From: a virus
Strand: one strand, 5' to 3'
Length of the DNA: 64,000 bases
IMG/VR virus record: IMGVR_UViG_3300032087_004763
Location: 1 to 64,000 of that record
Each line of letters starts with the position of its first letter. The first letter of the stretch is position 1. The position numbers and the translations under genes were made by a program. Of this stretch, positions 6,354 through 60,238 are shown in pieces. Below the pieces are notes generated by a model. It made no database searches. It had not been told where the DNA came from and saw nothing but the letters and a program-made list of their open reading frames with translations.

Positions 6354-6770
6354 CTATTCTTGTACACTACTTTCTGTAGGTATTTTATCTTGAGGCGCAA
6401 CGGCCTTCTCGTAATATATTATGATTTCTTTTTGCTGGTTTATGTAGCGTCTAATATCAGCGATGTTTAATGCGAGGTTTTCATAGTCTCGCATACTTAA
6501 GACAACAATAGCGACTTCGCCGTATTGTTCCTTAAATTCTTTGATGAATTGTTCGAGGTTCTGTTCATTGATGACACGCACACGGGTGTCAGACAGTTGA
6601 ACTGGCTTTGGTCTTGACATGATAGGAACTTCGGTCTTCTCAACCTTAGTTACTACTTTGATCTCCGGCTCCGGCCTCGGGATCAGGCTGCAACCAGTTA
6701 GGTAGAGGAGCATCCCCGCTACCACCAGTATCTTCCATGATTCCGCGCCAAAGTTTTGCACTTGCGCCAT
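6354..6770 (-). CDS. lipoprotein, putative o-spanin (Rz1-like)
   Basis: Hydrophobic stretch, lipobox LTGC, Pro-rich segment; start embedded in the 3' end of the upstream coiled-coil gene. Confidence 0.7.
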   Translation of the reverse strand: MAQVQNFGAESWKILVVAGMLLYLTGCSLIPRPEPEIKVVTKVEKTEVPIMSRPKPVQLSDTRVRVINEQNLEQFIKEFKEQYGEVAIVVLSMRDYENLALNIADIRRYINQQKEIIIYYEKAVAPQDKIPTESSVQE

Positions 6771-7095
6771 TCATCTTACCTTCGAGTTGTTGAGCATCTC
6801 TTAATGCTTCTTGAACTAAATTGATTCTACTTAATTTACCACGAAGCTCGTCACCATAGGCCTCTGCCTTCTGTAACTGAACTTGTAATTCTTGATTGAG
6901 TGCAGCGAACTTCTGCATGTCTTGTTGGAGAGACTCAATCGAGGCTTCACTTGTCTCGAGAGCTGTTTCTAGTTTGGCATTGTTTTCTTGGAGGGTAGCA
7001 AGTCGCTCTTGTGTATCTTTATAGTACCACATTGCCCCGTAACCTACAGAGCCTAATACGGCCAAAATTATGATGAGAGCGTAAATTTTAATCAT
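6646..7095 (-). CDS. membrane-anchored coiled-coil protein, putative i-spanin (Rz-like)
   Basis: N-terminal TM helix followed by a long heptad-rich region; overlaps the lipoprotein gene. Confidence 0.7.
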   Translation of the reverse strand: MIKIYALIIILAVLGSVGYGAMWYYKDTQERLATLQENNAKLETALETSEASIESLQQDMQKFAALNQELQVQLQKAEAYGDELRGKLSRINLVQEALRDAQQLEGKMNGASAKLWRGIMEDTGGSGDAPLPNWLQPDPEAGAGDQSSN

Positions 7096-7376
7096 TCTGT
7101 ATCTACGATGTACTTTCTAAATCGTTTCAATAGGACAGGAATCTGATCTTTCTTTCTACGTCGATCAGTGACGTTGATAGTTCTGAGGCGTGGGCCCATT
7201 GCTGTTTGTGCTGGATTCGGAATGTTTGCAGTAGAGGTTCCAGGTACTTCTTCATTCTGAGCTGAACGAATGGCTGCAGGAGTCGGTGCACCCTTCTCCC
7301 CTTTCTTTCTCATTCTTTCACCACGACGTCTCTTTGCGTGGATGTTGGCCCATAGGCCTTGTGACTTCTCGTTCAT
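7092..7376 (-). CDS. basic hypothetical protein (late cluster)
   Basis: K/R-rich GLWANIHAKRRRGERMRKKGEKGAPT module. Confidence 0.7.
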   Translation of the reverse strand: MNEKSQGLWANIHAKRRRGERMRKKGEKGAPTPAAIRSAQNEEVPGTSTANIPNPAQTAMGPRLRTINVTDRRRKKDQIPVLLKRFRKYIVDTE

Positions 7377-7960
7377 TTGTAAATCTCGTTGACAGTGACA
7401 TAGACTTTCTGGCGAGTACGAATATGTTCAGCCTCGTATATATCTATACCGAAGACGTCTCCAACCGGATAACAATCGTCATGAATTCGCACTTGATCCT
7501 TTGTATTTACGATATCATCATATGTTCCATTTAGGACTTTATCTTCTGACAATCTGTATACGCCTGGTGATAACATACCGTCTTTTAATACAAACCACTC
7601 ACTTGATTCTAACATGATATCAAGTGGATCAATCCCGCACTCTTCTATAATTTTATTCAGTTGCTTATCGCTCAGATTATATTTTTCTTTGATTAGAAAG
7701 AGCGCTGCAGCAAAACTTCCAAGCTTAGTGGATCCACCTGGAATCTTGCCGAGCAGGCGTTTAATGTTAGCAGCGAGGCGAATAAAAGGAGTATAAGAGG
7801 ACTTTTTTTCATCATCATCTAACCTTACCGACTTATTTCTTTTACCATTTTCATCAATAACACCTGTTTTATACGCATCCCAGTCTTTCCAGTCCATGAC
7901 TAACATGCGTATAAACCTAAATGTATATGCTAAATCAGCAGCTCTTTTAACTATTCCCAT
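7373..7960 (-). CDS. conserved T4-like hypothetical protein
   Basis: 195-aa ORF; AYKTGVIDENGK ... SFAAALFLIKE. Confidence 0.75.
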   Translation of the reverse strand: MGIVKRAADLAYTFRFIRMLVMDWKDWDAYKTGVIDENGKRNKSVRLDDDEKKSSYTPFIRLAANIKRLLGKIPGGSTKLGSFAAALFLIKEKYNLSDKQLNKIIEECGIDPLDIMLESSEWFVLKDGMLSPGVYRLSEDKVLNGTYDDIVNTKDQVRIHDDCYPVGDVFGIDIYEAEHIRTRQKVYVTVNEIYK

Positions 7961-8327
7961 TTATCTTTCTCAATCTCTCTATAACCATTTTATCCATTTT
8001 TATTTCTACTAATTCATTATTATCGATATAATTTAAGAATATCAAAAACGGTTTAACGACTGGCCAGTGTCTTTCATCTAACTTTAGTTTGAGAATATTC
8101 AAACCAGCTTCAATACCAAATGAGTTAAACACCACGATTAAGTGATTCAGTATCAGTCTATCAGCTAGGTCGTTATGATCTAAGTATCGGTTAACAAGTC
8201 TTTTTATATACTTAAACCTTTTCAGATCTTCGTAGAAATCATCTACATCTGAAAAGGTTGGATTGTCATAATGTTTAGCCGCATACAGAAATAGATTTTC
8301 TTCAGTTAACTCATTTAAAACAAGCAT
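7947..8327 (-). CDS. conserved T4-like hypothetical protein
   Basis: YAAKHYDNP..FYEDLKRFKYIKRL..LILNHLIVVFNSFG. Confidence 0.75.
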   Translation of the reverse strand: MLVLNELTEENLFLYAAKHYDNPTFSDVDDFYEDLKRFKYIKRLVNRYLDHNDLADRLILNHLIVVFNSFGIEAGLNILKLKLDERHWPVVKPFLIFLNYIDNNELVEIKMDKMVIERLRKINGNS

Positions 8328-8363
8328 TATAATTCCATAAAAACGTTACTGAATTATATATGC

Positions 8364-8714
8364 TTATTTTGTGAAAAGACCCCACCGACCTTTTTTCTTT
8401 GGAGCTTCTTCGTGTGTATGCTCTTCTTCACCGCCATCATGATCGTGGACTGTACCATCGTCATGGTGGTGATGGTCCATGTCACCATCTTCGTGTGAAT
8501 GTTCCTCATCACCATGGGTGTGTACAAGAACATCTTCGAGCTCAACAACTTCTTCTACTGGCTCAAGAGCAGGAGCAACAGTTGGTTCTGCCGTTGCACC
8601 ATACCACTCATCAATCTGAGTCTGTGAGATCTTTGCAGCTTTAAGTAACTCACCACTTGTTTCGTGGCGCCATCCCTTTATAGTTGGGATAGCATTCTTT
8701 GGTCCTTTAATCAT
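8364..8714 (-). CDS. His/Asp/Glu-rich protein, putative metal binder
   Basis: VHTHGDEEHSHEDGDMDHHHHDDGTVHDHDGGEEEHTHEE; GGAG RBS. Confidence 0.75.
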   Translation of the reverse strand: MIKGPKNAIPTIKGWRHETSGELLKAAKISQTQIDEWYGATAEPTVAPALEPVEEVVELEDVLVHTHGDEEHSHEDGDMDHHHHDDGTVHDHDGGEEEHTHEEAPKKKGRWGLFTK

Positions 8715-8726
8715 ATTTGCTCTCCA

Positions 8727-9578
8727 CTATGAATTTTTCTTGGTTCCAGTATACCCATCTCTTACAGGTTTTTTGTCGTACATTGACTGGTATGCACTAG
8801 CAAGTGATCTTATAGTTTTTGAGAATGACTCCTTCATACCGGCTTTTTTAGTGATATCTTCCGGTGGATTAATAACCTTAGTATCACCTGGTGCATTTTT
8901 ATCAGTAGAATTCTTTGGTGATACCTTAGCTTTCTTCTCAGCCTTTGCATTATCATCAGTTGCCTTCTTAATGTCTGCTCCTACTTCTTTCGGAGTATTC
9001 AACATATCCATAGCACCTTTAGATGATTGTGACTTGTCATGCAAACCTTCAGGCTTAGTAGCACCTTTGACATGCTCACCTCTATTTTCAATTACGGAGA
9101 GCAACTTTTCTCTGATTGACATATCAGTAGACTCCTTTTTAATAACTTCTCTATCAACTGGGACCATGCGCACATGCGTTTTTCCATCTGATCCTACATA
9201 TTTTTCTGGCTTTTTATCAGCTGATCTTACATTTTCATTCTTTGGATTCATGACAGCTGTCTCACCATTCTCGCCCTGAGGATCGTCTTCACCTTTCTTT
9301 TTCTTCTTTGATTTTAAAATAACCTTATCATTATGCATCATTTCGTTTTCAACATCTTCTTTAACGTCGTCAGCAATAGCCGTAGCAGTATCCTTCTTCA
9401 TAGTGACAGGATATCTTTTACCGCCAAACATAAAGTGTGACTTACCATCTTTATGAGCTGCTGCTGCAGCGCCATGGAAAGCTGTACGCTCATTTGCTGG
9501 CACTTCTTCAGGAATGATGAACCTTCCTTCTTTGACCTCTTGGTAAGCGCGGGTCAACGCTTCTATTTCTTTCTTCAT
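8727..9578 (-). CDS. charged modular protein, putative internal head protein
   Basis: LTRAYQEVKE at the N-terminus and LASAYQSMYD near the C-terminus; K/E-rich. Confidence 0.7.
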   Translation of the reverse strand: MKKEIEALTRAYQEVKEGRFIIPEEVPANERTAFHGAAAAAHKDGKSHFMFGGKRYPVTMKKDTATAIADDVKEDVENEMMHNDKVILKSKKKKKGEDDPQGENGETAVMNPKNENVRSADKKPEKYVGSDGKTHVRMVPVDREVIKKESTDMSIREKLLSVIENRGEHVKGATKPEGLHDKSQSSKGAMDMLNTPKEVGADIKKATDDNAKAEKKAKVSPKNSTDKNAPGDTKVINPPEDITKKAGMKESFSKTIRSLASAYQSMYDKKPVRDGYTGTKKNS

Positions 9579-9862
9579 GAGAAGACTCCTAATTGTGTTA
9601 TTATTGACCCGACAACGGCCACCGTTACTACCCAGAATAATTTATTTATTACACAGATTGTTCTATGATTATCATTACATATTTTTTCAATGTCATCTAA
9701 TTTTTCAGAATGCTTATTCATTCGCTCATGCATTTTATTATGGTCATCCTGAAGATTCGCAATCTTTTCCTCAGCTCTTGCCATGGCAACCATAGCATCG
9801 GTTAACTTATCTAGTTTTTCTTCTATGCGATCTAATCGTGACGCGTTCGACTCGTTAGCCAT
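9575..9862 (-). CDS. coiled-coil protein with C-terminal TM helix
   Basis: RLDRIEEKLDKLTDA ... LFWVVTVAVVGSII. Confidence 0.7.
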   Translation of the reverse strand: MANESNASRLDRIEEKLDKLTDAMVAMARAEEKIANLQDDHNKMHERMNKHSEKLDDIEKICNDNHRTICVINKLFWVVTVAVVGSIITQLGVFS

Positions 9863-9863
9863 T

Positions 9864-10178
9864 TTACCATTTTACCTTATCTGCCCAATAAGCAGCTGAC
9901 ATCTTGCCTTTAGCAATGTTTTTACCGTGGCGTGCTTTAAATGATGCACGCTTCTTCTTCATTCTCTCTGACTCACCCTTCTTGGGATCACCAGCAGTTT
10001 CAGCTCCTTGTTGACCGAACCGAATTGTTTTTACCTTATCACCCGACTTAGCAACCACGATGTGACTCTTTGTAGGATGACTAGGTGTACGCTTTGCTTT
10101 ATTAAAACCAGTTACACCGGCTCTTGCAAGACGTGGATCTTTTTCTTCGAAGAACTGCTTAAACTTAACCAAACTCAT
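9864..10178 (-). CDS. basic putative internal head protein
   Basis: Start MSLVKFKQFFEE (capsid-targeting-like); KTIRFGQQG...RASFKARH..SAAYWA. Confidence 0.75.
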   Translation of the reverse strand: MSLVKFKQFFEEKDPRLARAGVTGFNKAKRTPSHPTKSHIVVAKSGDKVKTIRFGQQGAETAGDPKKGESERMKKKRASFKARHGKNIAKGKMSAAYWADKVKW

Positions 10179-10935
10179 GTCCAGCAATCCTTCTCATCTG
10201 TTTGTTGAACTCAGCTTGACCTGGTTTATTTTTGTACAACTTCTTAGTTAGACTACTGTTCTTCTTTCCTTTGATTCTCCAGTTGAATCCTTTCTTTTTA
10301 TGTTCTGGGTCAGTAGTTTTTACAAGTCTTCTCTTATACTGAGCTTCGTATGACTCTGGTCCTTTCGGTGCATCAGTACTACCACGAGTTCCTTCTGACA
10401 TACCTTTACTTTTGCAATAATCTCTTGCTGTATCAATATAATCCGTGGCCTTTGTGATCTTTGACTGAACCCACTCAGGCATATTTTCATCATCGTCAAG
10501 CATATCGTGTAATTCTTGTGCAGCATCGATCATAGTTCTTAACTTTGTCTTTGCCATCTCACCTTCTTGGTCATATTCATTAGGATCTTTATTTTCGTTT
10601 TGGCCTGGTGTCATCTTCTTTGCGTGCTTTCTCGCATCATCAGTTCCTTCATCAGGGAGATAGTTTTCAACAGCGAGATGCTTTGGCATCTGACCTTTCT
10701 TTATCATGTCGTTCAGTGTATCCACTAAAAGATTTCCATCTCTTGGTGAAAGACCCATCATCTTTACAACCTGTTGAACACCTTGTCTACCTTTGCCAGG
10801 ATTCTTCTTTCTCCAATCAAGGTACATGCGAACCATACTTTTTAGCTTTGGTTTCATAGCAATTTTATGAAGCCACTGTGGGATCATAGCTGATGATCCA
10901 GTCGTGGTTTCTGTAAAATCCTTGAATCTCTTCAT
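10165..10935 (-). CDS. modular putative internal head protein
   Basis: Start MKRFKDFTE; EGEMAK..LHDMLDDDENMPEWVQSKITKATDY module. Confidence 0.75.
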   Translation of the reverse strand: MKRFKDFTETTTGSSAMIPQWLHKIAMKPKLKSMVRMYLDWRKKNPGKGRQGVQQVVKMMGLSPRDGNLLVDTLNDMIKKGQMPKHLAVENYLPDEGTDDARKHAKKMTPGQNENKDPNEYDQEGEMAKTKLRTMIDAAQELHDMLDDDENMPEWVQSKITKATDYIDTARDYCKSKGMSEGTRGSTDAPKGPESYEAQYKRRLVKTTDPEHKKKGFNWRIKGKKNSSLTKKLYKNKPGQAEFNKQMRRIAGHEFG

Positions 10936-12125
10936 TTTTTAGCCCTAGTAATACCAGCCATACGGTTTCTTTGCTTACGTCTATAATACTTCTCAGCATC
11001 TTTGGCACCCATTTCTCTTGCAATATCTGCAGAGAACTGTTGGTGACCGTAGTCAGACTTTGCTTTATCATGATAGCGTTGTTTCAAATCCTGTGAGATC
11101 TCACCTAGCTTCTTTGGACGACCCTTCATCATATGAAGTTTTCCGTGTCTATCACGATCAGCCTTCTCTTTGTCTTGACGTGCCTTCTGTAAAGGTGACA
11201 TCATTCTCTGTGCCTGGCTACCGTATGCAGCTTCTTTCTGCAGTTGTGGTAGTCCAAACTGACTATTTGGTACTGGCTCAGACTTAGGCTCTGAATGCTT
11301 CTTCATTGGTACAAGTTTTTTACCATCCTTACTAGGAACAACTGAGGCTTCGGTTCTGAGCGATGCACGAGCTACTGGATTACCCATATTACCTTTAGCA
11401 GCGTCTGGACCAAATCCCTTTAATTTCACTTTATTATCTTGCTTAGCAAGTCTTTTTCTCCGTGCAGCATTTCGAGCATCATCATCCTTATTAGGATTTC
11501 CGTGATAGGTCACAGCTTCGTCCATCTCACGGCCCTGAGCCTTATTACGGAAAGCTTTTCTTACTTCCATGTCAGTGTGTCTCTCGACACTCTTAATCAT
11601 AGAAGGCTGCTTAACAATCTTACGAAGCTTCGCCATAATCTCTGCAGTAGACTTGCCAGTCATAAACGTAGGTGGCAGTCCTTCGACATCAACTTTGTAC
11701 TGTACAGCTTCATTTGTTGGCTTTTCGTGAGTATATCCCATCTTAGCATATTTGTTATGATCCGCAGGAGTTTTTGCTGTCACTTCTTTGCCTGTCTTAG
11801 GATCATACATCATATGAGGATACTTTGCAGCTTCGGTAGCAGGCACTTTAGCTCTAGAGCCAGCACCCACTTTCTTATCAAGTTTTGCTCTGGCCATCTG
11901 CAGACCCTTTGCTCTCTTGTTTGCAGTCTTAGTCGCAGCCCGCTTAGCTTCTTTATCTCCACGAGCAAATGCATCAGCACTTGCCTTAGCAGCTTTCTCA
12001 AGAGATCCTGCAGCGCCTGATTTTTTTAGCTTACCTTTATTATCTACAGATAAGCCAATGTAATTAGTAAGCTTTTTAGCAGATACTTCATCTAATTTTG
12101 CTCTGAGCTCTTTTAGTTTTTTCAT
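10932..12125 (-). CDS. basic polyprotein-like putative internal head protein
   Basis: Start MKKLKELRAKLDE; modules separated by xxE|A junctions. Confidence 0.75.
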   Translation of the reverse strand: MKKLKELRAKLDEVSAKKLTNYIGLSVDNKGKLKKSGAAGSLEKAAKASADAFARGDKEAKRAATKTANKRAKGLQMARAKLDKKVGAGSRAKVPATEAAKYPHMMYDPKTGKEVTAKTPADHNKYAKMGYTHEKPTNEAVQYKVDVEGLPPTFMTGKSTAEIMAKLRKIVKQPSMIKSVERHTDMEVRKAFRNKAQGREMDEAVTYHGNPNKDDDARNAARRKRLAKQDNKVKLKGFGPDAAKGNMGNPVARASLRTEASVVPSKDGKKLVPMKKHSEPKSEPVPNSQFGLPQLQKEAAYGSQAQRMMSPLQKARQDKEKADRDRHGKLHMMKGRPKKLGEISQDLKQRYHDKAKSDYGHQQFSADIAREMGAKDAEKYYRRKQRNRMAGITRAKK

Positions 12126-13351
12126 CCTGGAAGCTTCCCATTTTTTCTTCTATTCTTAAGTGTAGTACTTACAGCATCTGCAGCGTCTCTAGGGCTCATA
12201 CCTCTTTTCGTTGCTGCATTATAAGCTCTACCTGGAACAAGAACACCTCGTCCATAGTTCTGCTTAACAGCCTTTGGATCTTGCTTAGCATGCGCAGCAT
12301 CCTTTTCAGCTGCGCGCTTCTTCATATAAGCTTGAACCGCAGGTGACTTTGATGTAGCAAACTTCAGATGATCTCTAAACTTTTGATCAAATGACTTTGC
12401 TTCGCCCATCAAGTCTTTGTCTTTCGCCATCGCTCGCTTGGCATCACGCTCAGCTTTCTTCTTTTCTTTATTGATCTTCTCACCGGCTTTTCTAATCATG
12501 GCAAGACGCTCTGGTGTGCCAGCTTCTTTTGTAAGTCTATCTGTAGCCCTTGCAATACCCTTCTGTCTCTTTACAGACTTCACATAATCTTTACCAGACT
12601 GGTCAGGATTACTCATTGCTTTCTGTGCTGCGCTGTATGCCAAGCCTGCAGCAGATTGTGCTGCTTTAGGAATATAGCTACCGATCGTACTCTTCTTGAG
12701 TTCATCAACTTGAACTGCTTCTTTAAATTCACCCTTCTTAACTTTGTCCATAACTTGCTTGGCAAGATTAGTTGCAGTTGCGTGATCGATTTTCATATTC
12801 TTCTTAAGTGCTTCAATACCATGATTCATACTTTTAGTAGGTTTCATGATTTCATAAGCCCTTTTTGCAATAATATTTTCGCCAAGGTTTGTACTTTTTT
12901 TAGCATAATCAGGTGCTCGTTTAACAGGGCCATATGATGGTGACTTTACTTTGGAAGCTCTTTCACGCTCCCTCGCGAGATCTTGTCTTTCACGCTCTCT
13001 CCGCTTTGCAATTAAGTCTGATTGCGCCTGAAACTTATCTGGAGTCATCTCATCAACAGGCTGTGCATCACGAGCCCTCTTTGCAAGAGTTGTCGCGCGA
13101 GACATCGGAGACTGTTTAGTTCCGTCACTGTTCTTCACATTCTTAATTGGTTTCGCTCCCTTACCAATTACTTTTTCAACGTCTTTTGTTGGAAGAAGTG
13201 CTTCTTGCACAGATTCGTTCTTTGCAGACATGTAAGCAGCAATCGCCATATCACGGCGTTTTTCAGCTGACTTGCCGTCGAATTTAGGATTGTCAGATTT
13301 TTTAAAATCATCAATCCAGGTTTTAATTCCGTCTTTTACTGATAATGGCAT
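12122..13351 (-). CDS. basic polyprotein-like putative internal head protein
   Basis: Junctions VQE|A, VDE|M, LGE|N, FKE|A, VDE|L, TKE|A, MGE|A. Confidence 0.75.
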   Translation of the reverse strand: MPLSVKDGIKTWIDDFKKSDNPKFDGKSAEKRRDMAIAAYMSAKNESVQEALLPTKDVEKVIGKGAKPIKNVKNSDGTKQSPMSRATTLAKRARDAQPVDEMTPDKFQAQSDLIAKRRERERQDLARERERASKVKSPSYGPVKRAPDYAKKSTNLGENIIAKRAYEIMKPTKSMNHGIEALKKNMKIDHATATNLAKQVMDKVKKGEFKEAVQVDELKKSTIGSYIPKAAQSAAGLAYSAAQKAMSNPDQSGKDYVKSVKRQKGIARATDRLTKEAGTPERLAMIRKAGEKINKEKKKAERDAKRAMAKDKDLMGEAKSFDQKFRDHLKFATSKSPAVQAYMKKRAAEKDAAHAKQDPKAVKQNYGRGVLVPGRAYNAATKRGMSPRDAADAVSTTLKNRRKNGKLPG

Positions 13352-13590
13352 TATGCTAGATCCTTATCGTGATTGAGTCCACCTTTCTTTTTCTTCACAA
13401 TGAATGCATTGACTCTTGCATGTCCCCATTGTGATGGAGTTGTGCCAGGTCTGTGACCTGTTTTCCAAGCTGCAACACCGCGGTTGTAAACCTTACGAAG
13501 TGTTCCAACTGAGATTCCTGATTTCTTTGACTTATCGGCCAGAGACTTACCAGCCTTATCTTCTTCAATGTATTGTTGAAATTTAATCAT
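13351..13590 (-). CDS. small basic protein (DUF5824-like), putative internal head protein
   Basis: Start MIKFQQYIEE; SGISVGTLRKVYNRGVAAWKTGHRPGTTPSQWGHARVN. Confidence 0.75.
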   Translation of the reverse strand: MIKFQQYIEEDKAGKSLADKSKKSGISVGTLRKVYNRGVAAWKTGHRPGTTPSQWGHARVNAFIVKKKKGGLNHDKDLA

Positions 13591-14828
13591 GCGCTGGTAG
13601 TCCTTCTGTTAATCTTTCTAGTTCTAAGTGTTCTAGCTCTATCTAATATTGAATCATGACGCTTCTTATCTGCCGCATCTCTTCTTCTCTCAATTTCTTT
13701 TTCACGTGATATTGTAGCACGTGCTTGGTCAACTGTTTGTTCACCGTACATGTCTTTGAAAGCCTTAGTGTATTTACTTGGCTTTGTCTTAGCACCTTTA
13801 TCACCTGGTGCTGGCTTATAGGCTGATGGGTCATCATCACGCTTTTTACCGTGCTTCTTAAAATGAGCGTCTCGCTTTGTCTTAGTCGACTTAGCTAAGC
13901 CTCTATGATAAGCTGCAGGTTGAGATCCTTTACGATCTTTAATATCTGAATCTTGTGGAGTAGATTGCTCACTTAATGATTCCATTACAGAATATTCACG
14001 CTTATTAGGTTCTACTGGTTCGATCGCATCTAACCACTTACGATAAACATTTCCAGATCCTTCAACTATAATGTAGTTTGAACCAAGAGACTTAACTTTA
14101 GCTAGCTCACCGGTTTCCTTTATCGCGACTACATCACCGACATTAAACAACTTACCATTAACATATGACTCACGAATTTCTGATACAGGTTCTAGTTGAA
14201 CATGTTTTGCATATTCTTTTGTTTCTTTCAGTCCCATGCCTTTACGAACCATATTGTAAATGGCTTTTGTCTCTGCGTTCGACACATTCCGTGGAACACC
14301 TTGACTAAATTTTGTAAAGTCACCAGCTGAAGCGGCAGCTCTCATCTTCGAGGCTGACATACCTTCTACACCTTCGGCATCTGGATCTCGATCACCAGCA
14401 GACACGACATTGATTCTACTGAAGTTATAGAATCCGTGACGACCTTTCTGACCATTATACTTCTCGAGGAGTGTACTAAACTCTCTTACTCGATCTGATC
14501 CGACGACCATCACAAGAGTCTTATAGCCTTCTTTGTATAACTCAGATGCTGCATTCATTGCATTCTTTACGTTGTTATTCACCATCACGGATCTCGCATG
14601 CTTTGGAAACATCTTGCGGATAGCTTTGATTTTATCCTTGTATGCAAGAGGATTCTTCTTTGCGTCTTGTGATTGTGATACAAAAATTCTATATGGGTTT
14701 CTACCTGCCTTCGCAGCTAAAGCATTAAAGAGTTTTTCATGACCTGTAGTAGGAGGATTCATTCTACCAAATGTAAAGTAGACTGACTTTTCCTCTTCAA
14801 CAAGAAAGCTCTTAAACGAATTAATCAC
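13587..14828 (-). CDS. cytidyltransferase-like (HIGH superfamily) nucleotidyltransferase with basic C-terminal modules
   Basis: FTFGRMNPPTTGHEKL, VVGSDR, MSASKMR; start MINSFKSFLVEE. Confidence 0.85.
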   Translation of the reverse strand: MINSFKSFLVEEEKSVYFTFGRMNPPTTGHEKLFNALAAKAGRNPYRIFVSQSQDAKKNPLAYKDKIKAIRKMFPKHARSVMVNNNVKNAMNAASELYKEGYKTLVMVVGSDRVREFSTLLEKYNGQKGRHGFYNFSRINVVSAGDRDPDAEGVEGMSASKMRAAASAGDFTKFSQGVPRNVSNAETKAIYNMVRKGMGLKETKEYAKHVQLEPVSEIRESYVNGKLFNVGDVVAIKETGELAKVKSLGSNYIIVEGSGNVYRKWLDAIEPVEPNKREYSVMESLSEQSTPQDSDIKDRKGSQPAAYHRGLAKSTKTKRDAHFKKHGKKRDDDPSAYKPAPGDKGAKTKPSKYTKAFKDMYGEQTVDQARATISREKEIERRRDAADKKRHDSILDRARTLRTRKINRRTTSA

Positions 14829-15368
14829 TTACTTTCTTCCTCGTTTCTTCGCTAACTCAGCCTGACGAACTTTCGGGAAAGCTCTTCGAGCGAGCATATC
14901 AATTCTTTTCTTGATAGCAGGCTTCTCTAATCTCTTTTCTATCTCTTGACGACGAGCATACGTTAGTTCGCTCTTTGGAATGTCTTTCGTGAATTTTTTC
15001 ATAAAGGCTAAGCGAACTTGCCTTCTGGTTCTCTTCATTAATTTTTCTTTTGATGCAATTCTGCGCTTAGCTATCTCTCGACCACGTTTAATTTTAAACT
15101 TGATTTTTTTCATTTGGCGCTTGCGTTGCATACGCTGCTGGACGGTAAGAGCTTCTTCCATGTCGGTTGACTCTGAGTATGTTGCTGTATCGCTTCCAAC
15201 ATCGTGGACTTTACGTCTTCTATAGGCACGATAGTTAGTTAACTCATCTTCACCAGGGCGGTATTGAGTAACATGAAGATCATTGAATGAGAGCTTAGGG
15301 CGATCGAATGGATGAGGCTGGCCATCCATTTCGAGTATATCTTTAAAACGCAGTAACTTGTCTGCCAT
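14829..15368 (-). CDS. Arg/Lys-rich protein, putative internal head protein
   Basis: Start MADKLLRFKDILE; MEE|ALTVQQRMQRKR followed by a highly basic domain. Confidence 0.75.
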   Translation of the reverse strand: MADKLLRFKDILEMDGQPHPFDRPKLSFNDLHVTQYRPGEDELTNYRAYRRRKVHDVGSDTATYSESTDMEEALTVQQRMQRKRQMKKIKFKIKRGREIAKRRIASKEKLMKRTRRQVRLAFMKKFTKDIPKSELTYARRQEIEKRLEKPAIKKRIDMLARRAFPKVRQAELAKKRGRK

Positions 15369-15397
15369 ATCTTCCTCTGGTTTTTCCCATCTATATA

Positions 15398-16624
15398 CTA
15401 CGAACGGCGTGACGTTTGCCAGCCTTTCAAAATATCGGGGCTAAAGTTGGCGTATGAAAATTCCATACGATCAACAATCTTAACCGCATCACCACCAAGT
15501 TGATCAATGGCTACAAAGCCTTCTGATCCTGTGGTCTTGTAACCGTTCTTTGTTTTTAGAAACGTTGATATTTTATTAAAACGGTCTAATATATTTATCA
15601 GTTTTAGTTTCGCCAGAATGATAACTTTTTGCAAATCGAATATTTTTTTCAAAGAAGCTTGATTCTTGGCTGAGAAGAAATCTAATATTTCTTTTAACGC
15701 TTTCTGCTGAGTAGCTTTCCCAGCTGGAGTCGTTCTCTTATCGATTTCTTTTTGGTATTTACCTTTGATCCAGGTAATGAGTTTTCTCGTGTGCGCTCGA
15801 GTGTCATTAACAACTGTGCCTGCTCGTACGTAGGTGTTGTTAAATTGCTCAATGTGTTGTGCAAGTTTTTGATTCGATTCGAGCTCCCTAAGAGTCGAAC
15901 CTGCGATTTGGTTAAATAGCACCCCAGCTTGTTTAAGATAGCCATTTACTTCCTCCGTGTCTTTTGAAGACATCGTATAGGAAGTCATGTCTCGTAACAT
16001 GGCGTCTTGTGACCATACATTTGTTGTTGTTTTAAATTTCGAGACATCTACTCCATACGATGCTTTGAGTGTTTCGAATGTCCTACCACTATAGGAGGTA
16101 TGCCATACAACTCCTATCTTGGCTTTTTTGATTTGTTTTGCCATTTCCGTATCTGCCGGTACCGCATAGACGATCGTGTTAGGATGGAAAGTAACATAGG
16201 ATTTTCCTTTGATTTTCTTAGTTTGTATATCGTCGCTTGAGAATAGAAAATCGCCTTGAACCACACCTCGTATGCCAAGAGCCGGCAAATAAGCCAAAGC
16301 TTGCTTAAGCTTTGCATTTAAATCTCCACTTGTGTCCGCATCAATGTCTGCGTCAGTTTTGTATACCTTCGGATTTTTGTTGAAGATACCTTTCTTCGCT
16401 ACAAAAAATTCGCCATCACGAGGATCGGTACCAGCAAAAATAGCAGGAGCTCCATCCCATTTAACAGATACTCTACCATCGTGTTCTCCTGCAAATGTAT
16501 CTCGAAGCGATCGTAATGCTAGAATCGCTTCACGTGTACCATTGACTCCACCATAGAGAACCTTATCCTCGATGTGGGTCATATGTGTATTCTTTTGTTC
16601 TGTTATATAATCTCTAAAATACAT
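15398..16624 (-). CDS. ATP-dependent ligase-like covalent nucleotidyltransferase (DUF6267-like)
   Basis: Motifs in ligase order: SVKWDG (I), VQGDFLF (III), SEGFV (IV), AVKIV (V); start MYFRDYITE. Confidence 0.65.
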   Translation of the reverse strand: MYFRDYITEQKNTHMTHIEDKVLYGGVNGTREAILALRSLRDTFAGEHDGRVSVKWDGAPAIFAGTDPRDGEFFVAKKGIFNKNPKVYKTDADIDADTSGDLNAKLKQALAYLPALGIRGVVQGDFLFSSDDIQTKKIKGKSYVTFHPNTIVYAVPADTEMAKQIKKAKIGVVWHTSYSGRTFETLKASYGVDVSKFKTTTNVWSQDAMLRDMTSYTMSSKDTEEVNGYLKQAGVLFNQIAGSTLRELESNQKLAQHIEQFNNTYVRAGTVVNDTRAHTRKLITWIKGKYQKEIDKRTTPAGKATQQKALKEILDFFSAKNQASLKKIFDLQKVIILAKLKLINILDRFNKISTFLKTKNGYKTTGSEGFVAIDQLGGDAVKIVDRMEFSYANFSPDILKGWQTSRRS

Positions 16625-16640
16625 GAATCTGGTCTACCAT

Positions 16641-17393
16641 CTAGTTCTCGATTAATATTATGTCAAATGATGATGAAATTGTTGATCCGGTTGATGCAAT
16701 TGCTCTTATTTCTATATCTGTTTTCGGCGGAAGTTCAATTGGAACTTTATAATCTCGTGTATGAAAACCACCAGGAACATCCATAATATCTCTTGTTCTA
16801 AATGCTCCAAGAACGTTTTCAACTTGTCTCGTAAATAGTGTTGCAGTTGCTGAAGAGTTATAAGCGCTAACTCCAACATTCCATTGAGTTAAATATCCAG
16901 TGCAGTGAGCTGGAATAGTATAAAGACCTAACATTGTTTGACCTAGACCATAAGTCGTACCAATTCCAATTGTACCGATATCAGCTAAGACTGTGCCACC
17001 GCCACCGGCTGCTGTTGATATTATTACATTACCTTCATTTGTACCAGTTGAACCTGCAGATGCAACAAACGCACGAAAGACTCTCAAAAATTCAGCAGTA
17101 CCTACAAGATTATTAACCGGCTGAGTTACATTAATTTCATTGTAATTTGCATCCAATCCTATAATCGTTACCGTTCGTGCTCCATTTCCAGTTGGGTTAT
17201 CATCTCCATCATTACTTGAAACAAAAACAGTTGATGGCGAAGTAAGGTAGGTATAAAGACCACCTTGTTGCCATATCGTTTCAGGAGCACCACCTACACT
17301 TGGATTACGTCCAAACTTATGAATATACGAGTATTTGTGGATTAAACCTTGCCCGATGTTTAAGTAATCATCTGATTCGAAATATTTAGACAT
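16641..17393 (-). CDS. hypothetical beta-rich protein, possibly virion-associated
   Basis: IHKFGRNPSVG..ETIWQQGG; G/T/V-rich, unlike its basic neighbours. Confidence 0.65.
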   Translation of the reverse strand: MSKYFESDDYLNIGQGLIHKYSYIHKFGRNPSVGGAPETIWQQGGLYTYLTSPSTVFVSSNDGDDNPTGNGARTVTIIGLDANYNEINVTQPVNNLVGTAEFLRVFRAFVASAGSTGTNEGNVIISTAAGGGGTVLADIGTIGIGTTYGLGQTMLGLYTIPAHCTGYLTQWNVGVSAYNSSATATLFTRQVENVLGAFRTRDIMDVPGGFHTRDYKVPIELPPKTDIEIRAIASTGSTISSSFDIILIEN

Positions 17394-18775
17394 TATGCTG
17401 CACTCACTTTGACGTATACTGATGAATCATCGAGTTTTGATCCTGCATAGTTAACCATGTAGGACATAAAATCGTCTTGTTGTTTTTTCTTTGCTGTATG
17501 TAAAGCATGTGCAATTGTTGTCACACCAAGCTTTGCATGAATTCTGTCAATAGTAGCCGTTGCTAATCCTGACTCAAACTCTTCCTCTGTAATTGATGAA
17601 TCGATTGCTTTTGCCTTCCTAAATAAATCTGGTGCTTTCTTTGTACGTAAAATTGTTCTCGCTTCAGTTTTTAGCTGAGCATTTGTTGGTAGCTTTACAT
17701 TTAAGAAAGTACTTGCAGCATATTCAAGTTGAGAGTAACCGGCTCTACCGCCACGTGCACCTTTCAGAATAATCTCCATATTTAGTGCGCCCATAGAACT
17801 TGGTGCTCTAATATCAGCCTTTTTTGTTTTGTCAAAGAATACATCTCCGCCCTTACCTGACCAAAATGTGGATTTTGCTTGTTCAGCTTTAACTCTTACA
17901 CGAGTAAAGACATGTCGGTCAAGTTCTTTCTTTTCCATATTTAGAACTTCATGCTTAGCCTTAGCTTCAAGCTTGTTGATTTGCTTAAGCGAAATACCTA
18001 CGATATCTCTTGATACAAAATTCTTTGCAAGCGAAGCATTTAATGTTTCGATTGATGTAGAATCTAAAGCTCTCTTTACATCTATACCAGATCTCACTGC
18101 CCAGATATCACCTGGATTCCACTTATCATCTGTTAGAACTGGCTTACCTGAATTCTTGAATGCTGTTTTCTTCATGGCATAAATCGCTTTCATAGTAATA
18201 GATCCACGATGAAATTTGTGTTGCTTCGTAACAAATCCTTCTTCGATAAGATGCTTTGCAGTTACATAGGCCGAGTAGTGCCATTCAGCTGCAGCCTTCA
18301 TCATTTTCTCGTACGAAACATCTGTTTCGATATTGTTAGCGTGTCCTTTTAGAAGCTCTGGTGTAAAATGCGGAAACTCTTTATTCTTTCCTTCGGCAAG
18401 CATTGCTTGTAGATATAAACATTGTAGAGACTCACCATCTGCTGTGTTACCAGTTGCTCCCGCACCTGCACCTTTACCACCAAAGACCGGTGATTTACCA
18501 ACCTGATTAGATTGAATAATAGTCCCATCTTCCAATTCTAGTGGAAATGATTTTGTGGCATCATCGCTTTTAATGAAGGCTTTTACTGAATTTATGTTTT
18601 GAGCAATATTCTTTACTTTTAAGTCTTTACCCATAGTATCGGTTACGGGATTTGTAGGACTTTGAATCACATCAATAAGAATATTGAGACGCTTGTCTCC
18701 ATACTTGAACCACTCGGCTCGAGACATTGGCTTGAACACGGTCTTCTCCAGTAAGAATGCTTTAAATCTGAGCAT
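17393..18775 (-). CDS. putative PD-(D/E)xK restriction-endonuclease-like protein with capsid-targeting N-terminus
   Basis: TADGES (E) ... DKWNPGDIW ... GISLKQ (SxK variant); start MLRFKAFLLE. Confidence 0.6.
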   Translation of the reverse strand: MLRFKAFLLEKTVFKPMSRAEWFKYGDKRLNILIDVIQSPTNPVTDTMGKDLKVKNIAQNINSVKAFIKSDDATKSFPLELEDGTIIQSNQVGKSPVFGGKGAGAGATGNTADGESLQCLYLQAMLAEGKNKEFPHFTPELLKGHANNIETDVSYEKMMKAAAEWHYSAYVTAKHLIEEGFVTKQHKFHRGSITMKAIYAMKKTAFKNSGKPVLTDDKWNPGDIWAVRSGIDVKRALDSTSIETLNASLAKNFVSRDIVGISLKQINKLEAKAKHEVLNMEKKELDRHVFTRVRVKAEQAKSTFWSGKGGDVFFDKTKKADIRAPSSMGALNMEIILKGARGGRAGYSQLEYAASTFLNVKLPTNAQLKTEARTILRTKKAPDLFRKAKAIDSSITEEEFESGLATATIDRIHAKLGVTTIAHALHTAKKKQQDDFMSYMVNYAGSKLDDSSVYVKVSAA

Positions 18776-18777
18776 AA

Positions 18778-18816
18778 AAATAGTACCACAATAAGTGTAT
18801 TATGGTACTATTTATA
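18778..18816 (-). promoter_or_regulatory. T4-type late promoter TATAAATA (18816-18809) overlapping a 16-bp hairpin
   Basis: AAATAGTACCATAATA-CACT-TATTGTGGTACTATTT immediately before the ATG at 18775. Confidence 0.8.
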
Positions 18817-53055: not shown

Positions 53056-53106
53056 ATAAACTCCTTATATGATTATTTATACATTTCATTTTTTTAACTA
53101 ACACAT

Positions 53107-58858: not shown

Positions 58859-60238
58859 TTACGCGAGGATGTTATCCACTCTGAAAATGCGATAGTACTG
58901 GTTAGTCTTGACTGCAGCAAGACCGTCGGCTGGAGTAGTCCCGACGAATGGGTTTGAAGCCATACCGTAACGAGTCTTGAAGCCGATCTTAGGCTGGAAT
59001 GTATCTTCTCCAACCGCACGTACCATTGTTAATGGAACGTATGGGCAGTAGAACAGACCAGAGTCATACGGGTTAGTACCCTTATAACCAACTGTGACAT
59101 AGTCTGTAGTTGAGAACGGATCAATGTACACACGTGTACGTCCATTCAGAACACCAGCGAATGTGTTACCAGTGTCGTCAACGTTCAAGTTAGTTGACAT
59201 AGCTGGTGAGTAGTCGAGCATGCCAGAAGCAGCGAGTGCACTTGCAACGTCTGATGAACAGATGATGAAGTTACCCTTACCTCTACGAGTCTCTTTAGCG
59301 ATTGTGTTAGCTTCTCTTTCGATCTGCACAATCAGACCCTTGAACTTCTCAACTGACCAACGGCCATCAGCGTCGAGTGACAAGTTAAAGATACCCTTGG
59401 TATCAATACCGTCTTGACGAGCACCGAACTTAGCCTGTGAGTTAATCGTACGAATAACTTCACGGTTGATCTCAGCAAGAATCTCTGTAGACAGAATGTT
59501 TGCAAGCTCTGTCTCAGCGTCAAGACCATGAATCGCTTTCAAGTCTTGAGCCAATTCTAAGCTGTATTCTGCCTTCAAAGCACGCGAGCGAGCTGTTACT
59601 GTAGCTTTCTCAATCGTGAAGCCCATCTCAGCAAATGCTTGAGAAGAACCACCAGATCCGAGAGCTTCAGCAGTAGCTGTCGACATACCGGCACTTGCAG
59701 GAGGCGTACCCAATCCACCAGGTACATAAGTTGATTCTGAGTCAAGCAATGAAGAGTCATTGTCTGTATCAGAAACACCAGTTAAGCCAGAAGGACCAGC
59801 TGAACCTTGACCTGTGCCTGAGTCTCCAGAGTACTGAACCAGTGCTTCGTCGAACAGAGCTTCTGTATCTTCAGTTCTTGAACCACCACGTGCAGCACCA
59901 CCAGTAGAAGTCTGATAACGAGACTTCATAGCAAAGATGAGGCCAGTAGGACCAGTCATTGGCTGAACACCACAAACGTCATAAGCCATGAGGTTAGGCA
60001 TAGCACGACGAACGAGTGCAATCAATACTGGGTTCCAGTTAGCAGCATTGCCTGTTGCGTTAGAAGGTGTCTCCGTGAGGTGTTGCTGTTGTGCAGCTTC
60101 CTCATTGAACGCACGCTCTTGGTTTTCTAATACCGCAGCTGTTACAGCTTTACGGTGGCTATCTGTGATCGATCCAGCTGTCTCGTTGTCGAGAACCGGT
60201 GACCACTTTTCGATCAAACGATCGTATGATTCCATCAT
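58859..60238 (-). CDS. 23: major capsid protein gp23
   Basis: LVRRAMPNL, VQPMTGPTGLIFAM, KAEYSLELAQDLKAIHGLDAE, FQPKIGFKTRYG. Confidence 0.98.
   Translation of the reverse strand: MMESYDRLIEKWSPVLDNETAGSITDSHRKAVTAAVLENQERAFNEEAAQQQHLTETPSNATGNAANWNPVLIALVRRAMPNLMAYDVCGVQPMTGPTGLIFAMKSRYQTSTGGAARGGSRTEDTEALFDEALVQYSGDSGTGQGSAGPSGLTGVSDTDNDSSLLDSESTYVPGGLGTPPASAGMSTATAEALGSGGSSQAFAEMGFTIEKATVTARSRALKAEYSLELAQDLKAIHGLDAETELANILSTEILAEINREVIRTINSQAKFGARQDGIDTKGIFNLSLDADGRWSVEKFKGLIVQIEREANTIAKETRRGKGNFIICSSDVASALAASGMLDYSPAMSTNLNVDDTGNTFAGVLNGRTRVYIDPFSTTDYVTVGYKGTNPYDSGLFYCPYVPLTMVRAVGEDTFQPKIGFKTRYGMASNPFVGTTPADGLAAVKTNQYYRIFRVDNILA

What the first reader, a model, noticed from the sequence alone, without database searches (positions are those of the whole stretch)
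7092..18775. ~11.7-kb late cluster of proteins with T4-type capsid-targeting N-termini: a large packaged cargo set
Seen: at least eight otherwise unrelated ORFs under a late promoter (18809-18816) share one N-terminal pattern: MLRFKAFLLE, MYFRDYITE, MADKLLRFKDILE, MINSFKSFLVE, MIKFQQYIEE, MKKLKELRAKLDE, MKRFKDFTE and MSLVKFKQFFEE, i.e. (K/R)-F-x-x-(F/Y)-x-x-E. Established: this matches the T4 internal-protein capsid targeting sequence (IPIII MKTYQEFIAE). gp21 removes it after Glu, and the proteins are injected with the DNA; T4 IPI* inhibits GmrSD. Inference: this phage packages a far larger injected kit than T4, including three enzymes, that can act on host defences before any phage transcription.
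Basis: partly seen in the sequence, partly recalled or inferred. Interest (0 to 1): 0.85.

Follow-up and report, generated by a model that had tools for sequence, protein, structure and literature searches.

The report
Capsid-targeting leaders on phage cargo proteins
A marine T4-like phage has a late-promoted block of about ten genes whose mostly unrelated, very basic products, including a ligase-like and a nucleotidyltransferase-like enzyme, start with the same ten-residue tag that phage T4 uses to load proteins into its head, so they are very probably packed into the virion with the DNA.

Summary
Seven of the ten consecutive minus-strand genes between 18775 and 9864 start with a leader that has an aromatic residue at about position 4, an aromatic at about 7, an aliphatic next, and Glu at about 10. 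An eighth leader is weak. A rule derived beforehand from T4 mutagenesis hits 5/10 genes here and 0/199 elsewhere in the 142-kb genome (p=8e-8).

The phage has a gp21 protease, a gp22 scaffold and gp23, and a TATAAATA late promoter lies 33 nt upstream of the first gene. All leader-bearing proteins have pI 9.6-10.8, against a genome median of 5.5. In homologues only the four T4-critical leader positions are conserved. Whole families split into members with and without the leader, and the split falls exactly at the predicted cut.

Published proteomics of cyanophage S-SM1 detected the orthologous cytidylyltransferase, which carries the same leader, and five neighbouring proteins in purified virions. 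The leaderless DUF6267 orthologue is not among the virion proteins listed.

So the capsid-targeting reading is well supported. Injection is inferred. An anti-defence role is unsupported, and only two of the three claimed enzymes could be confirmed. An overlapping follow-up report from this scan exists but was withheld. This is a new variant of a known mechanism.

The parts
18809..18816 (-). T4-type late promoter TATAAATA, 33 nt upstream of the first gene of the block
   Evidence: Exact match. Genome-wide, 17 of the 23 copies lie within 80 nt upstream of a called ORF, mostly in the structural-gene block. Melnitz has the same octamer 47 nt upstream of its first leader-bearing gene.
17393..18775 (-). 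460-aa basic protein (pI 9.6) with a 10-residue leader in exact T4 register. Fold unassigned; possible PD-(D/E)xK-like nuclease at low confidence.
   Evidence: AF2 pLDDT 90.7 with residues 1-9 below 50. No PDB match. 39 of 120 homologues carry the leader and the others start just after it. Invariant D217-K-W-N-P-x-D223 and S262-L-K264. ESM leads to RE_HpaII/RE_HaeIII clusters.
16641..17393 (-). 250-aa acidic protein (pI 5.0) without a leader, embedded in the block; function unknown
   Evidence: phrog_8198 only. No Pfam family.
15398..16624 (-). 408-aa DUF6267 protein: 9-residue leader followed by a ligase/capping-enzyme-like nucleotidyltransferase domain with a helical insert
   Evidence: The Pfam DUF6267 match (3e-101) starts at residue 12. 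AF2 pLDDT 93.6 with residues 1-9 below 50. VIA-align matches RNA ligases: 5cot Z 7.9 over 185 aa, T4 Rnl2 Z 7.7 over 169 aa, Trl1 Z 7.3 over 208 aa. Invariant K55-x-D57-G58, E368-G369 and K382. Leader conservation.
14829..15368 (-). 179-aa Arg/Lys-rich protein (pI 10.8, net +29) with a 13-residue leader ending I-L-E
   Evidence: Homologous segments in C48C1, DLP_6 and HTVC008M.
13587..14828 (-). 413-aa HxGH-type (cytidylyltransferase-like) nucleotidyltransferase with an 11-residue leader, an SH3-like segment and a DUF5824 tail. Orthologue of cyanophage T4-GC190.
   Evidence: PF01467 at 22.4 bits (cut-off 21) and PF19141. phrog_3041/395 'cytidyltransferase' at 5e-78. Cyanophage orthologues align from residue 12-16 onward. 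Leader conserved in 120 homologues. S-SM1 orthologue found in the virion with 25 peptide counts.
13351..13590 (-). 79-aa DUF5824 protein (pI 10.3) with a 10-residue leader in exact T4 register
   Evidence: The C48C1 homologue has the same leader pattern.
12122..13351 (-). 409-aa Lys-rich low-complexity protein (pI 10.1, net +44) without a canonical leader. It has a W-I-D-D variant at residues 12-15.
   Evidence: No family match.
10932..12125 (-). 397-aa Lys/Ala-rich protein (pI 10.2, net +48) with a weak Leu-based leader ending L-D-E. It contains a module shared with S-SM1 virion protein T4-GC426.
   Evidence: BLASTP of residues 128-236 against SSM1_197 gives E=9e-6. GC426 has 17 peptide counts in S-SM1 virions.
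10165..10935 (-). 256-aa basic protein (pI 9.6) with a 9-residue leader ending F-T-E
9864..10178 (-). About 104-aa basic protein (pI 10.5) with a 12-residue leader, counted from the ATG at 10178
   Evidence: phrog_7595, plus a weak hit to phrog_220 'minor head protein and DNA pilot'.
61343..61996 (-). gp21-type prohead protease, the enzyme predicted to remove the leaders
   Evidence: PF03420 Peptidase_S77, 1.1e-38. Its own N-terminus has an I-x-E site.
60257..61330 (-). gp22-type scaffolding core protein, the presumed docking platform for the leaders
   Evidence: PF25623 T4_CASP, 1.5e-67.
58859..60238 (-). gp23 major capsid protein with an N-terminal propeptide. The Pfam match starts at residue 66, and an L-T-E site lies at residues 53-55.
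   Evidence: PF07068, 4.9e-146. Sequence read.

Best explanation
The block 18775->9864 encodes internal head proteins of a marine T4-like myovirus. Each leader-bearing product is made late. Its roughly ten-residue N-terminal leader docks it on the gp22/gp21 scaffolding core while the prohead assembles: the aromatic residues near positions 4 and 7 give targeting, and the aliphatic residue plus Glu near 8 and 10 form the cleavage site. The gp21-type protease then cuts after the Glu, and the mature basic protein stays in the head alongside the DNA.

The cargo is of two kinds. One is long Lys/Arg-rich low-complexity proteins that most likely act as DNA counter-ions. The other is folded proteins: a ligase-like nucleotidyltransferase (DUF6267), an HxGH nucleotidyltransferase, and a 460-aa protein of unknown fold. 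By analogy with T4 IPI-III and Alt they would leave the head with the DNA.

Shown here: the motif, its confinement to this block, its conservation pattern, the protease and scaffold genes, the late promoter, the charge, and virion presence of orthologues in S-SM1. Inferred: docking, cleavage, injection and function in the cell.
For: 1. Register. T4 ipII and ipIII both start M-K-T-Y-Q-E-F-I-A-E. T4 genetics puts targeting at residues 4 and 7 and processing at 8 and 10 (PMC9026906). Two leaders here have exactly F4, F/Y7, L/I8 and E10, and the others are shifted by -1 to +3 residues.

2. Confinement. 5/10 against 0/199 ORFs, p=8e-8.

3. Protein-level selection. There is no paralogy and the codons differ. 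Among motif-bearing homologues of three families F fills 78-100% of the first aromatic position, F/Y 77-100% of the second and L/I 94-100% of the aliphatic one, although the filter allowed other residues there, while the positions between them vary freely; Glu was fixed by the filter.

4. Modularity. In representatives of 50%-identity clusters of DUF6267, about 56 carry the leader and about 53 start 3-6 residues before the conserved H-L-E-H-L-E-D block, which is at the predicted cut. The 460-aa family splits the same way. The Pfam domain starts at residue 12. AF2 gives pLDDT below 50 only for residues 1-9 in both models.

5. Machinery. gp21 protease, gp22 scaffold and gp23 are present.

6. Late promoter in front of the first gene, with the same arrangement in Melnitz.

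7. Charge. pI 9.6-10.8 and net +11 to +48, against a genome median pI of 5.5. T4 IPII and IPIII have pI 9.3 and 9.5.

8. Experimental support from an orthologous locus. LC-MS/MS of purified S-SM1 virions found T4-GC190 cytidylyltransferase (25 counts) and GC1453, 1454, 1455, 425 and 426 (PMC3037559 Table S8). All six are encoded in the syntenic gp41-gp61 block. SSM1_190 carries a leader with F4, F7, L8 and E10. The leaderless DUF6267 orthologue GC71 carries no proteomic flag in the paper's gene-cluster table and is absent from the parts of Table S8 read.
Against: There are no virion mass-spectrometry or N-terminal data for this phage or for any leader in this clade, so cleavage and injection are untested.

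The same cytidylyltransferase was not detected in Syn9 or S-PM2 virions (Table S8), even though Syn9 gp184 carries the leader. I believe those studies were gel-band based and less sensitive, but I did not check that here.

At least two S-SM1 virion proteins from the block (SSM1_188 and SSM1_191) lack the motif, so the motif is not necessary for virion association.

Half of the DUF6267 family lacks the leader, so the enzyme's job is not tied to the virion.

Only the first gene has a recognisable late promoter, and co-transcription of the remaining genes of the block, out to about 9 kb from the promoter, is assumed.
Confidence: 0.75

Rival explanations
1. The leaders do target the proteins to the prohead core, but the proteins are assembly-stage core or scaffold components, like gp22, gp67 and gp68. 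gp21 would digest them and they would be largely expelled, or kept only as small peptides, so no functional enzymes or proteins are delivered to the host.
For: The long basic proteins are low-complexity and scaffold-like. T4 core proteins are processed by the same protease (PMC9026906). The cytidylyltransferase has 2.7 [ILV]-x-E sites per 100 aa, above the genome mean of 1.5.
Against: S-SM1 mature virions gave 25 peptide counts for the cytidylyltransferase, similar to gp6 and gp22, so at least that protein persists. The 460-aa and DUF6267 proteins fold into compact, high-confidence domains and have few internal [ILV]-x-E sites, 1.1 and 0.7 per 100 aa.
Confidence: 0.14
2. The shared N-terminus is not a capsid signal. 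It is a short amphipathic helix used for something else, such as docking to another phage or host complex or a translation-initiation effect of AT-rich codons. Its likeness to the T4 sequence would then be convergent.
For: The motif is short. Phe, Lys, Ile and Asn use AT-rich codons, which are favoured after start codons. No direct packaging data exist for this phage.
Against: The strict motif hits 0 of 199 other ORFs in the genome, including highly expressed structural genes. The Glu and the aliphatic residue two positions before it fit the gp21 I/L-x-E rule. An S-SM1 orthologue with the leader is in virions. Leader presence or absence breaks exactly at the predicted cut.
Confidence: 0.08
3. 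The pattern is a chance or gene-calling artefact.
For: Some start codons are uncertain: a GTG at 14828, and TTG versus ATG at 10187/10178.
Against: Fisher p is about 1e-7. The same leaders are seen in hundreds of independently called metagenomic homologues.
Confidence: 0.01

Closest known systems
T4 internal proteins IPI, IPII, IPIII and Alt, loaded through the capsid targeting sequence (Mullaney and Black 1996; reviewed in PMC9026906 and PMC3012670)
   Same: A roughly 10-residue N-terminal leader with the same critical positions (4, 7, 8, 10). Basic cargo that is otherwise unrelated in sequence. A gp21 protease and gp22 core are present. Late expression. Genes clustered in a variable locus. 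Alt is a precedent for enzyme cargo.
   Different: The cargo proteins have no homology to any T4 IP. They are far larger (up to 460 aa, against 95-193 aa for the IPs) and more numerous (7-8 leaders in one block). They include ligase-like and HxGH nucleotidyltransferase folds. The host phage belongs to the marine Kyanoviridae-like branch, not Tevenvirinae. No target such as GmrSD is known.
Virion proteins T4-GC190, 1453, 1454, 1455, 425 and 426 of cyanophage S-SM1 (Sullivan et al. 2010, PMC3037559)
   Same: Syntenic block between gp41 and gp61/nrd. GC190 is the orthologue of 13587-14828 and carries the same leader. The GC426 module is present in 10932-12125.
   Different: That paper listed them as structural proteins of unknown role and, in the sections I read and searched, does not mention internal proteins; the parts read do not mention a leader. 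In S-SM1 the DUF6267 orthologue has no leader. The gene in the position of the 460-aa protein is not detectably homologous.
Ejection proteins of giant phages (phiKZ, SPN3US) processed by the prohead protease (PMC5694885, PMC7411985)
   Same: Many head-internal proteins, with propeptides removed by a prohead protease that cuts after Glu.
   Different: I recall a different propeptide logic (long propeptides and an S/A/G-x-E site), and the cargo and phage lineage are unrelated. This comparison rests on those papers' abstracts and my own knowledge; I did not test it here.
T4 RNA ligases Rnl1/Rnl2, Naegleria nick-sealing RNA ligase and fungal Trl1 (covalent nucleotidyltransferase superfamily)
   Same: The DUF6267 model aligns to their nucleotidyltransferase domains (Z 6.6-7.9 over 160-208 residues). 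It keeps an invariant K-x-D-G, an E-G and a downstream Lys.
   Different: No sequence-level hit to any ligase family. It has a roughly 130-residue helical insert. The Z-scores are in the grey zone. T4 ligases are not packaged.

Membership tests
T4-type CTS-bearing internal head proteins | N-terminal leader of about 10 residues with hydrophobic/aromatic residues at positions 4 and 7 (targeting) and an aliphatic residue at 8 plus Glu at 10 (processing) | tested here: met
   Seven ORFs. Rule taken from PMC9026906 and from the T4 ipII/ipIII sequences.
T4-type CTS-bearing internal head proteins | The same genome encodes a gp21-type prohead protease and a gp22-type scaffolding core | tested here: met
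   PF03420 at 1.1e-38 and PF25623 at 1.5e-67.
T4-type CTS-bearing internal head proteins | Late transcription | tested here: inconclusive
   TATAAATA lies 33 nt upstream of the first gene only. The genes are tightly packed and show no terminator signal above chance. There are no expression data.
T4-type CTS-bearing internal head proteins | Basic, DNA-associated mature protein | tested here: met
   pI 9.6-10.8 and net +11 to +48, against a genome median pI of 5.5. DNA binding itself was not tested.
T4-type CTS-bearing internal head proteins | Physically present in purified virions | not testable with these tools
   Only by orthology: S-SM1 GC190 and GC426 were detected by LC-MS/MS. GC190 was not detected in Syn9 or S-PM2.
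T4-type CTS-bearing internal head proteins | Leader removed by cleavage after Glu, and protein injected with the DNA | not testable with these tools
   Indirect only: homologue families begin at the predicted cut, and the leader is disordered in AF2 models.
Covalent nucleotidyltransferases (ATP-dependent ligases/capping enzymes), for 15398-16624 | Motif I K-x-D-G with an invariant Lys | tested here: met
   K55, D57 and G58 are invariant or near-invariant in 109 sequences.
Covalent nucleotidyltransferases (ATP-dependent ligases/capping enzymes), for 15398-16624 | Nucleotidyltransferase fold | tested here: inconclusive
   VIA-align Z 6.6-7.9 to seven RNA-ligase entries over 160-208 residues. Foldseek probability is 0.25 or lower. 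The Z-scores lie in the range where chance matches occur.
Covalent nucleotidyltransferases (ATP-dependent ligases/capping enzymes), for 15398-16624 | Motifs IV (E-G-x-x) and V (Lys) | tested here: met
   E368, G369 and K382 are invariant. Assigning them to motifs IV and V is my reading of the alignment.
HxGH nucleotidylyltransferases (PF01467 CTP_transf_like), for 13587-14828 | Pfam gathering score and the (H/T)-x-G-H signature | tested here: met
   22.4 bits against a cut-off of 21, residues 19-119. T-T-G-H at residues 27-30. phrog_3041 at 5e-78. Substrate unknown: NCBIfam NMNAT models hit only at E=0.04.
PD-(D/E)xK restriction-endonuclease-like nucleases, for 17393-18775 | Core alpha-beta-beta-beta-alpha-beta fold with a D...(D/E/S)-x-K catalytic motif | tested here: inconclusive
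   Invariant D223 and S262-L-K264. Weak VIA rows for MspI and a Cas4-family protein at Z 2.8. ESM neighbour clusters with RE_HpaII or RE_HaeIII in a minority of members, scores 0.84-0.86. No Pfam hit.

The most novel reading that the evidence does not exclude
In the abundant marine T4-like phages the capsid-targeting leader may act as a portable on/off tag that turns ordinary cytoplasmic phage enzymes into virion-delivered cargo. This phage would then inject a pre-made nucleic-acid toolkit: a ligase-like nucleotidyltransferase, an HxGH nucleotidyltransferase and perhaps a nuclease. These would act on host or phage nucleic acids, or on nucleotide cofactors, in the first seconds of infection, before any phage gene is expressed.
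Probability: 0.3. Interest if true: 0.8.

Novelty: new variant of a known kind. Interest (0 to 1): 0.6.

Why it matters
The T4 capsid targeting sequence has been described for T-even phages and their small anti-restriction proteins. This work shows the same four-position code on large, enzyme-like proteins in the Kyanoviridae-like marine branch. That implies the leader-scaffold interaction is ancient and general across T4-like phages.

It also gives a simple sequence rule for predicting virion cargo in thousands of uncultured ocean phages. The three families searched returned 8,000, 7,963 and 379 metagenomic homologues.

It offers an explanation for unexplained proteomics, namely why a 'cytidylyltransferase' is found in cyanophage particles. 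It also names concrete candidates for first-wave infection functions. All of this can be tested directly in cultured relatives.

Tried and rejected
- Nucleotide search of the 12-kb block against GenBank phages found no match.
- Sequence searches of the 408-, 460- and 413-aa proteins against PDB gave nothing significant.
- Foldseek against PDB gave no match at E<=0.001 for either model.
- VIA-align of the 460-aa model had a best Z of 3.9, so no fold was assigned.
- Pfam scans of all 71 members of the 460-aa family found only noise. NCBIfam found nothing above its cut-offs.
- Profile comparison of the 460-aa family with the positionally equivalent proteins of S-SM1 and Melnitz found no homology. 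Pfam on those positional equivalents also found nothing.
- The idea that the proteins are paralogues was rejected: all-against-all BLASTP gave no hits.
- The idea that a repeated DNA segment encodes the leaders was rejected, because the codons differ.
- Sigma-70 promoter and terminator scans of the block were at chance level.
- The internal [ILV]-x-E site density was looked at: numerically low in several cargo proteins, high in one, and too weak to argue from.
- The ORF at 52468-53055 (late promoter, leader-like start) was considered as extra cargo and set aside. It looks like an HTH plus HNH-type endonuclease, has Leu at the second aromatic position, and has pI 8.9.

Full report
What the window is. 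The window is the first 64 kb of a 142,381-bp uncultured viral contig, estimated 84% complete. It encodes a gp23 major capsid protein (PF07068, 4.9e-146), a gp22-type scaffold (PF25623, 1.5e-67) and a gp21-type prohead protease (PF03420, 1.1e-38) at 58.8-62.0 kb. The closest GenBank phages by protein similarity are Phage C48C1 (Kyanoviridae), Stenotrophomonas phage DLP_6, Methylophilales phage Melnitz, Pelagibacter phage HTVC008M and the T4-like cyanophages. It is therefore a marine T4-like myovirus outside the T-even group.

The observation. All quoted ORFs exist on the minus strand. Seven consecutive-block genes start with a leader of the form aromatic, x, x, aromatic (once Ile), aliphatic (once Thr, in a leader one residue shorter), x, Glu. 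They are 17393-18775, 15398-16624, 14829-15368, 13587-14828, 13351-13590, 10165-10935 and 9864-10178. The eighth, 10932-12125, has only leucines at the aromatic positions and is weak. Three stretches have no canonical leader: 16641-17393, 12122-13351, and the genes from 9862 down to 7092. The motif block is therefore about 9864-18775.

I called 209 ORFs on the whole genome and applied a rule fixed beforehand from T4 genetics. It hits 5 of 10 genes in the block and 0 of 199 elsewhere (Fisher p=8e-8). A relaxed rule gives 7/10 against 5/199 (p=3e-8). Internal 16-residue windows match at 0.7% (strict) and 3.5% (loose). With the leader removed the proteins show no BLASTP similarity to each other, and the leaders are encoded by different codons. 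The signal is therefore at the protein level and does not come from a DNA repeat or from paralogy. Two proteins do share a DUF5824 domain.

Match to the T4 capsid targeting sequence. I read T4 ipII and ipIII from NC_000866. Both start M-K-T-Y-Q-E-F-I-A-E and have pI 9.3 and 9.5. A review of the Black laboratory work states that the first 10 residues of IPIII suffice for encapsidation. It also states that amber-suppressor substitutions place targeting mainly at residues 4 and 7 and processing at residues 8 and 10, and that Asp at position 10 blocks cleavage but not targeting (PMC9026906). Two leaders here, at 17393-18775 and 13351-13590, have F4, F/Y7, L/I8 and E10 in exactly that register. The others are offset by -1 to +3 residues.

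Conservation in homologues. Among the 120 closest homologues of the DUF6267 protein, the Phe, the second aromatic, the Ile and the Glu are essentially invariant, while the positions between them vary freely. The same holds for the cytidylyltransferase family and for leader-bearing members of the 460-aa family.

The leader is a module. The Pfam DUF6267 match starts at residue 12. AlphaFold models of the 460-aa and 408-aa proteins are very confident overall (pLDDT 90.7 and 93.6), and the only low-confidence N-terminal stretch is residues 1-9. Across representatives of 50%-identity clusters of the whole DUF6267 family (2,564 hits), about 56 of the top 150 carry the leader. About 53 start 3-6 residues before the conserved H-L-E-H-L-E-D block, which is at the predicted cleavage point, and 17 are fused to other N-terminal domains. 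The 460-aa family shows the same split, with 39 of 120 carrying the leader. Some leaderless calls may be gene-caller choices, but the pattern is what a portable propeptide would produce.

Context. A perfect T4 late-promoter octamer, TATAAATA, lies at 18809-18816(-), 33 nt upstream of the first ATG. Of its 23 copies in the genome, 17 lie within 80 nt upstream of a called ORF, mostly in the structural-gene block. No further copy, even with one mismatch, precedes the other leader genes. Generic promoter and terminator scans are at chance level. Co-transcription of the tightly packed genes is therefore plausible but assumed. Melnitz has the same octamer 47 nt upstream of its first leader-bearing gene.

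Every leader-bearing protein is strongly basic, with pI 9.6-10.8 and net charge +11 to +48, against a genome median pI of 5.5. The 179-, 397- and 409-aa proteins are Lys/Arg-rich and low-complexity, as expected for DNA counter-ions.

Synteny. The order gp41 helicase, a 300-460-aa protein, DUF6267, a small basic protein, the cytidylyltransferase, then further genes, DUF7207 and a roughly 195-aa protein is recognisable in C48C1, Melnitz and HTVC008M and in part in DLP_6. C48C1 and Melnitz carry clear leaders on several of these genes, DLP_6 on two and HTVC008M only weaker ones. The protein at the first position carries a leader in Melnitz yet is not detectably homologous to the one here. This resembles the cassette-like IP loci of T-even phages (PMC12373910).

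Experimental anchor. Sullivan et al. 2010 analysed purified S-SM1 virions by LC-MS/MS (PMC3037559). Their Table S8 lists T4-GC190 'cytidylyltransferase' (25 counts), GC1453 (12), GC1454 (10), GC1455 (7), GC425 (17) and GC426 (17). In the S-SM1 record these are SSM1_190, 188, 191, 192, 195 and 197, all inside the syntenic gp41-gp61 block.

By tblastn, SSM1_190 is the orthologue of 13587-14828 (44% identity, from residue 12 of the query), and SSM1_189 (GC71) is the DUF6267 orthologue. SSM1_190 starts with a leader that has F4, F7, L8 and E10. SSM1_189 has no leader, carries no proteomic flag in the paper's gene-cluster table, and is absent from the parts of Table S8 I read. Residues 128-236 of the 397-aa basic protein are homologous to GC426 (E=9e-6).

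This gives one family with the leader found in virions and one neighbouring family without it that is not listed there. The caveats are real. GC190 was not detected in Syn9 or S-PM2 virions, although Syn9 gp184 carries the leader. Two S-SM1 virion proteins from the block lack the motif.

What the cargo is. The DUF6267 model aligns with the nucleotidyltransferase domains of RNA ligases: Naegleria ligase 5cot (Z 7.9, 185 residues), T4 Rnl2 (Z 7.7, 169 residues; Z 7.4, 172 residues), Trl1 (Z 7.3, 208 residues) and T4 Rnl1 (Z 6.6). The family keeps an invariant K55-x-D57-G58, E368-G369 and K382. The Z-scores are in the grey zone and Foldseek is not significant, so I call the protein ligase-like rather than a ligase.

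The 413-aa protein passes the Pfam CTP_transf_like cut-off marginally and has the T-x-G-H signature. Its substrate is unknown. In some phages the two enzymes are fused, as in the 764-position phrog_455 profile.

The 460-aa protein has many invariant polar residues but no structural match. Three weak hints point toward a restriction-endonuclease-like fold: the D...S-x-K motif, MspI and Cas4-family rows at Z 2.8, and ESM neighbour clusters carrying RE_HpaII or RE_HaeIII. I give that about one chance in three.

Literature and novelty. T-even Ip genes are recognised by their signal sequence, and T4 Ip1-3 each inhibit a different GmrSD enzyme (PMC12373910; PMC3012670). In the held library, the only paper containing both 'capsid targeting' and 'cyanophage' is a general T4 review, and none mentions DUF6267. 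The S-SM1 paper reports the proteins only as structural proteins of unknown role. The mechanism is therefore known, but its use for large enzyme-like cargo in the marine T4-like lineage appears undescribed. I rate this a new variant of a known kind.

Earlier notes of this scan gave three leads. One proposed ligase motifs behind the leader of 15398-16624, and my fold search agrees with it. One read the 10165-13351 proteins as basic polyproteins. One predicted a cytosine-hypermodification operon in the same genome, which would make anti-restriction cargo plausible; I did not test that.

Verdict. Observation confirmed. Capsid targeting and packaging are well supported (about 0.75). Injection is plausible by analogy. 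An anti-defence role and the phrase 'far larger kit than T4' are unproven, and only two enzyme-like proteins are supported rather than three.

Noticed in passing
window 7092-7376 (-): This 94-aa very basic ORF (pI 11.4) ends, just before its stop codon, with a leader-like motif (F-R-K-Y-I-V-D-T-E). That puts a capsid-targeting-like sequence at a C-terminus. It could be a C-terminal processing site, as described for T4 Alt, or a remnant of a lost downstream cargo gene.
   Followed up: no
window 52468-53055 (-), promoter at 53074-53081: A 195-aa Cys-rich protein with its own TATAAATA late promoter and a leader-like start (F5, L8, E10). It has a weak HTH_23 hit and an HNH-like D-H...N...N C-terminus. 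It is probably a late HNH endonuclease rather than cargo.
   Followed up: partly
window 16641-17393 (-): An acidic 250-aa protein that looks beta-rich on reading its sequence (phrog_8198, no Pfam family) sits between two leader-bearing genes. It has no leader and no homologue in the relatives' loci I fetched.
   Followed up: partly
window 8364-8714 (-): A 116-aa acidic protein with a dense His/Asp/Glu tract, including four consecutive His, which looks like a metal-binding segment.
   Followed up: no
window 6646-7095 and 6354-6770 (-): An overlapping gene pair that reads like a spanin pair. One has an N-terminal transmembrane segment plus coiled coil. The other is a partly overlapping, out-of-frame ORF (overlap 6646-6770) with a lipobox-like L-T-G-C.
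   Followed up: no
window 4296-6302 (-): The NrdA-like ribonucleotide reductase large subunit carries a C-terminal extension with a glutaredoxin-like C-P-F-C motif.
   Followed up: no
window 61996-62202 (-) and 58859-60238 (-): The small core-protein-like ORF after gp21 starts with F4...F-T-E, the same ending as the leader of 10165-10935. gp23 itself starts with a Y5...L-I-E10 leader-like sequence and has an L-T-E site at residues 53-55, just before the Pfam-defined mature domain. These are candidate gp21 sites that would define this protease's specificity.
   Followed up: partly
L003 (S-PM2 NC_006820) 7992-9771: In the original S-PM2 record the DUF6267 homologue is split across p141 and p142, with p142 annotated as 'cytidyltransferase'. 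In the resequenced S-PM2 (LN828717) the match is one piece. The split is probably a frameshift in the old record, and the real protein may be a fusion of DUF6267 and a nucleotidyltransferase, without a leader.
   Followed up: partly
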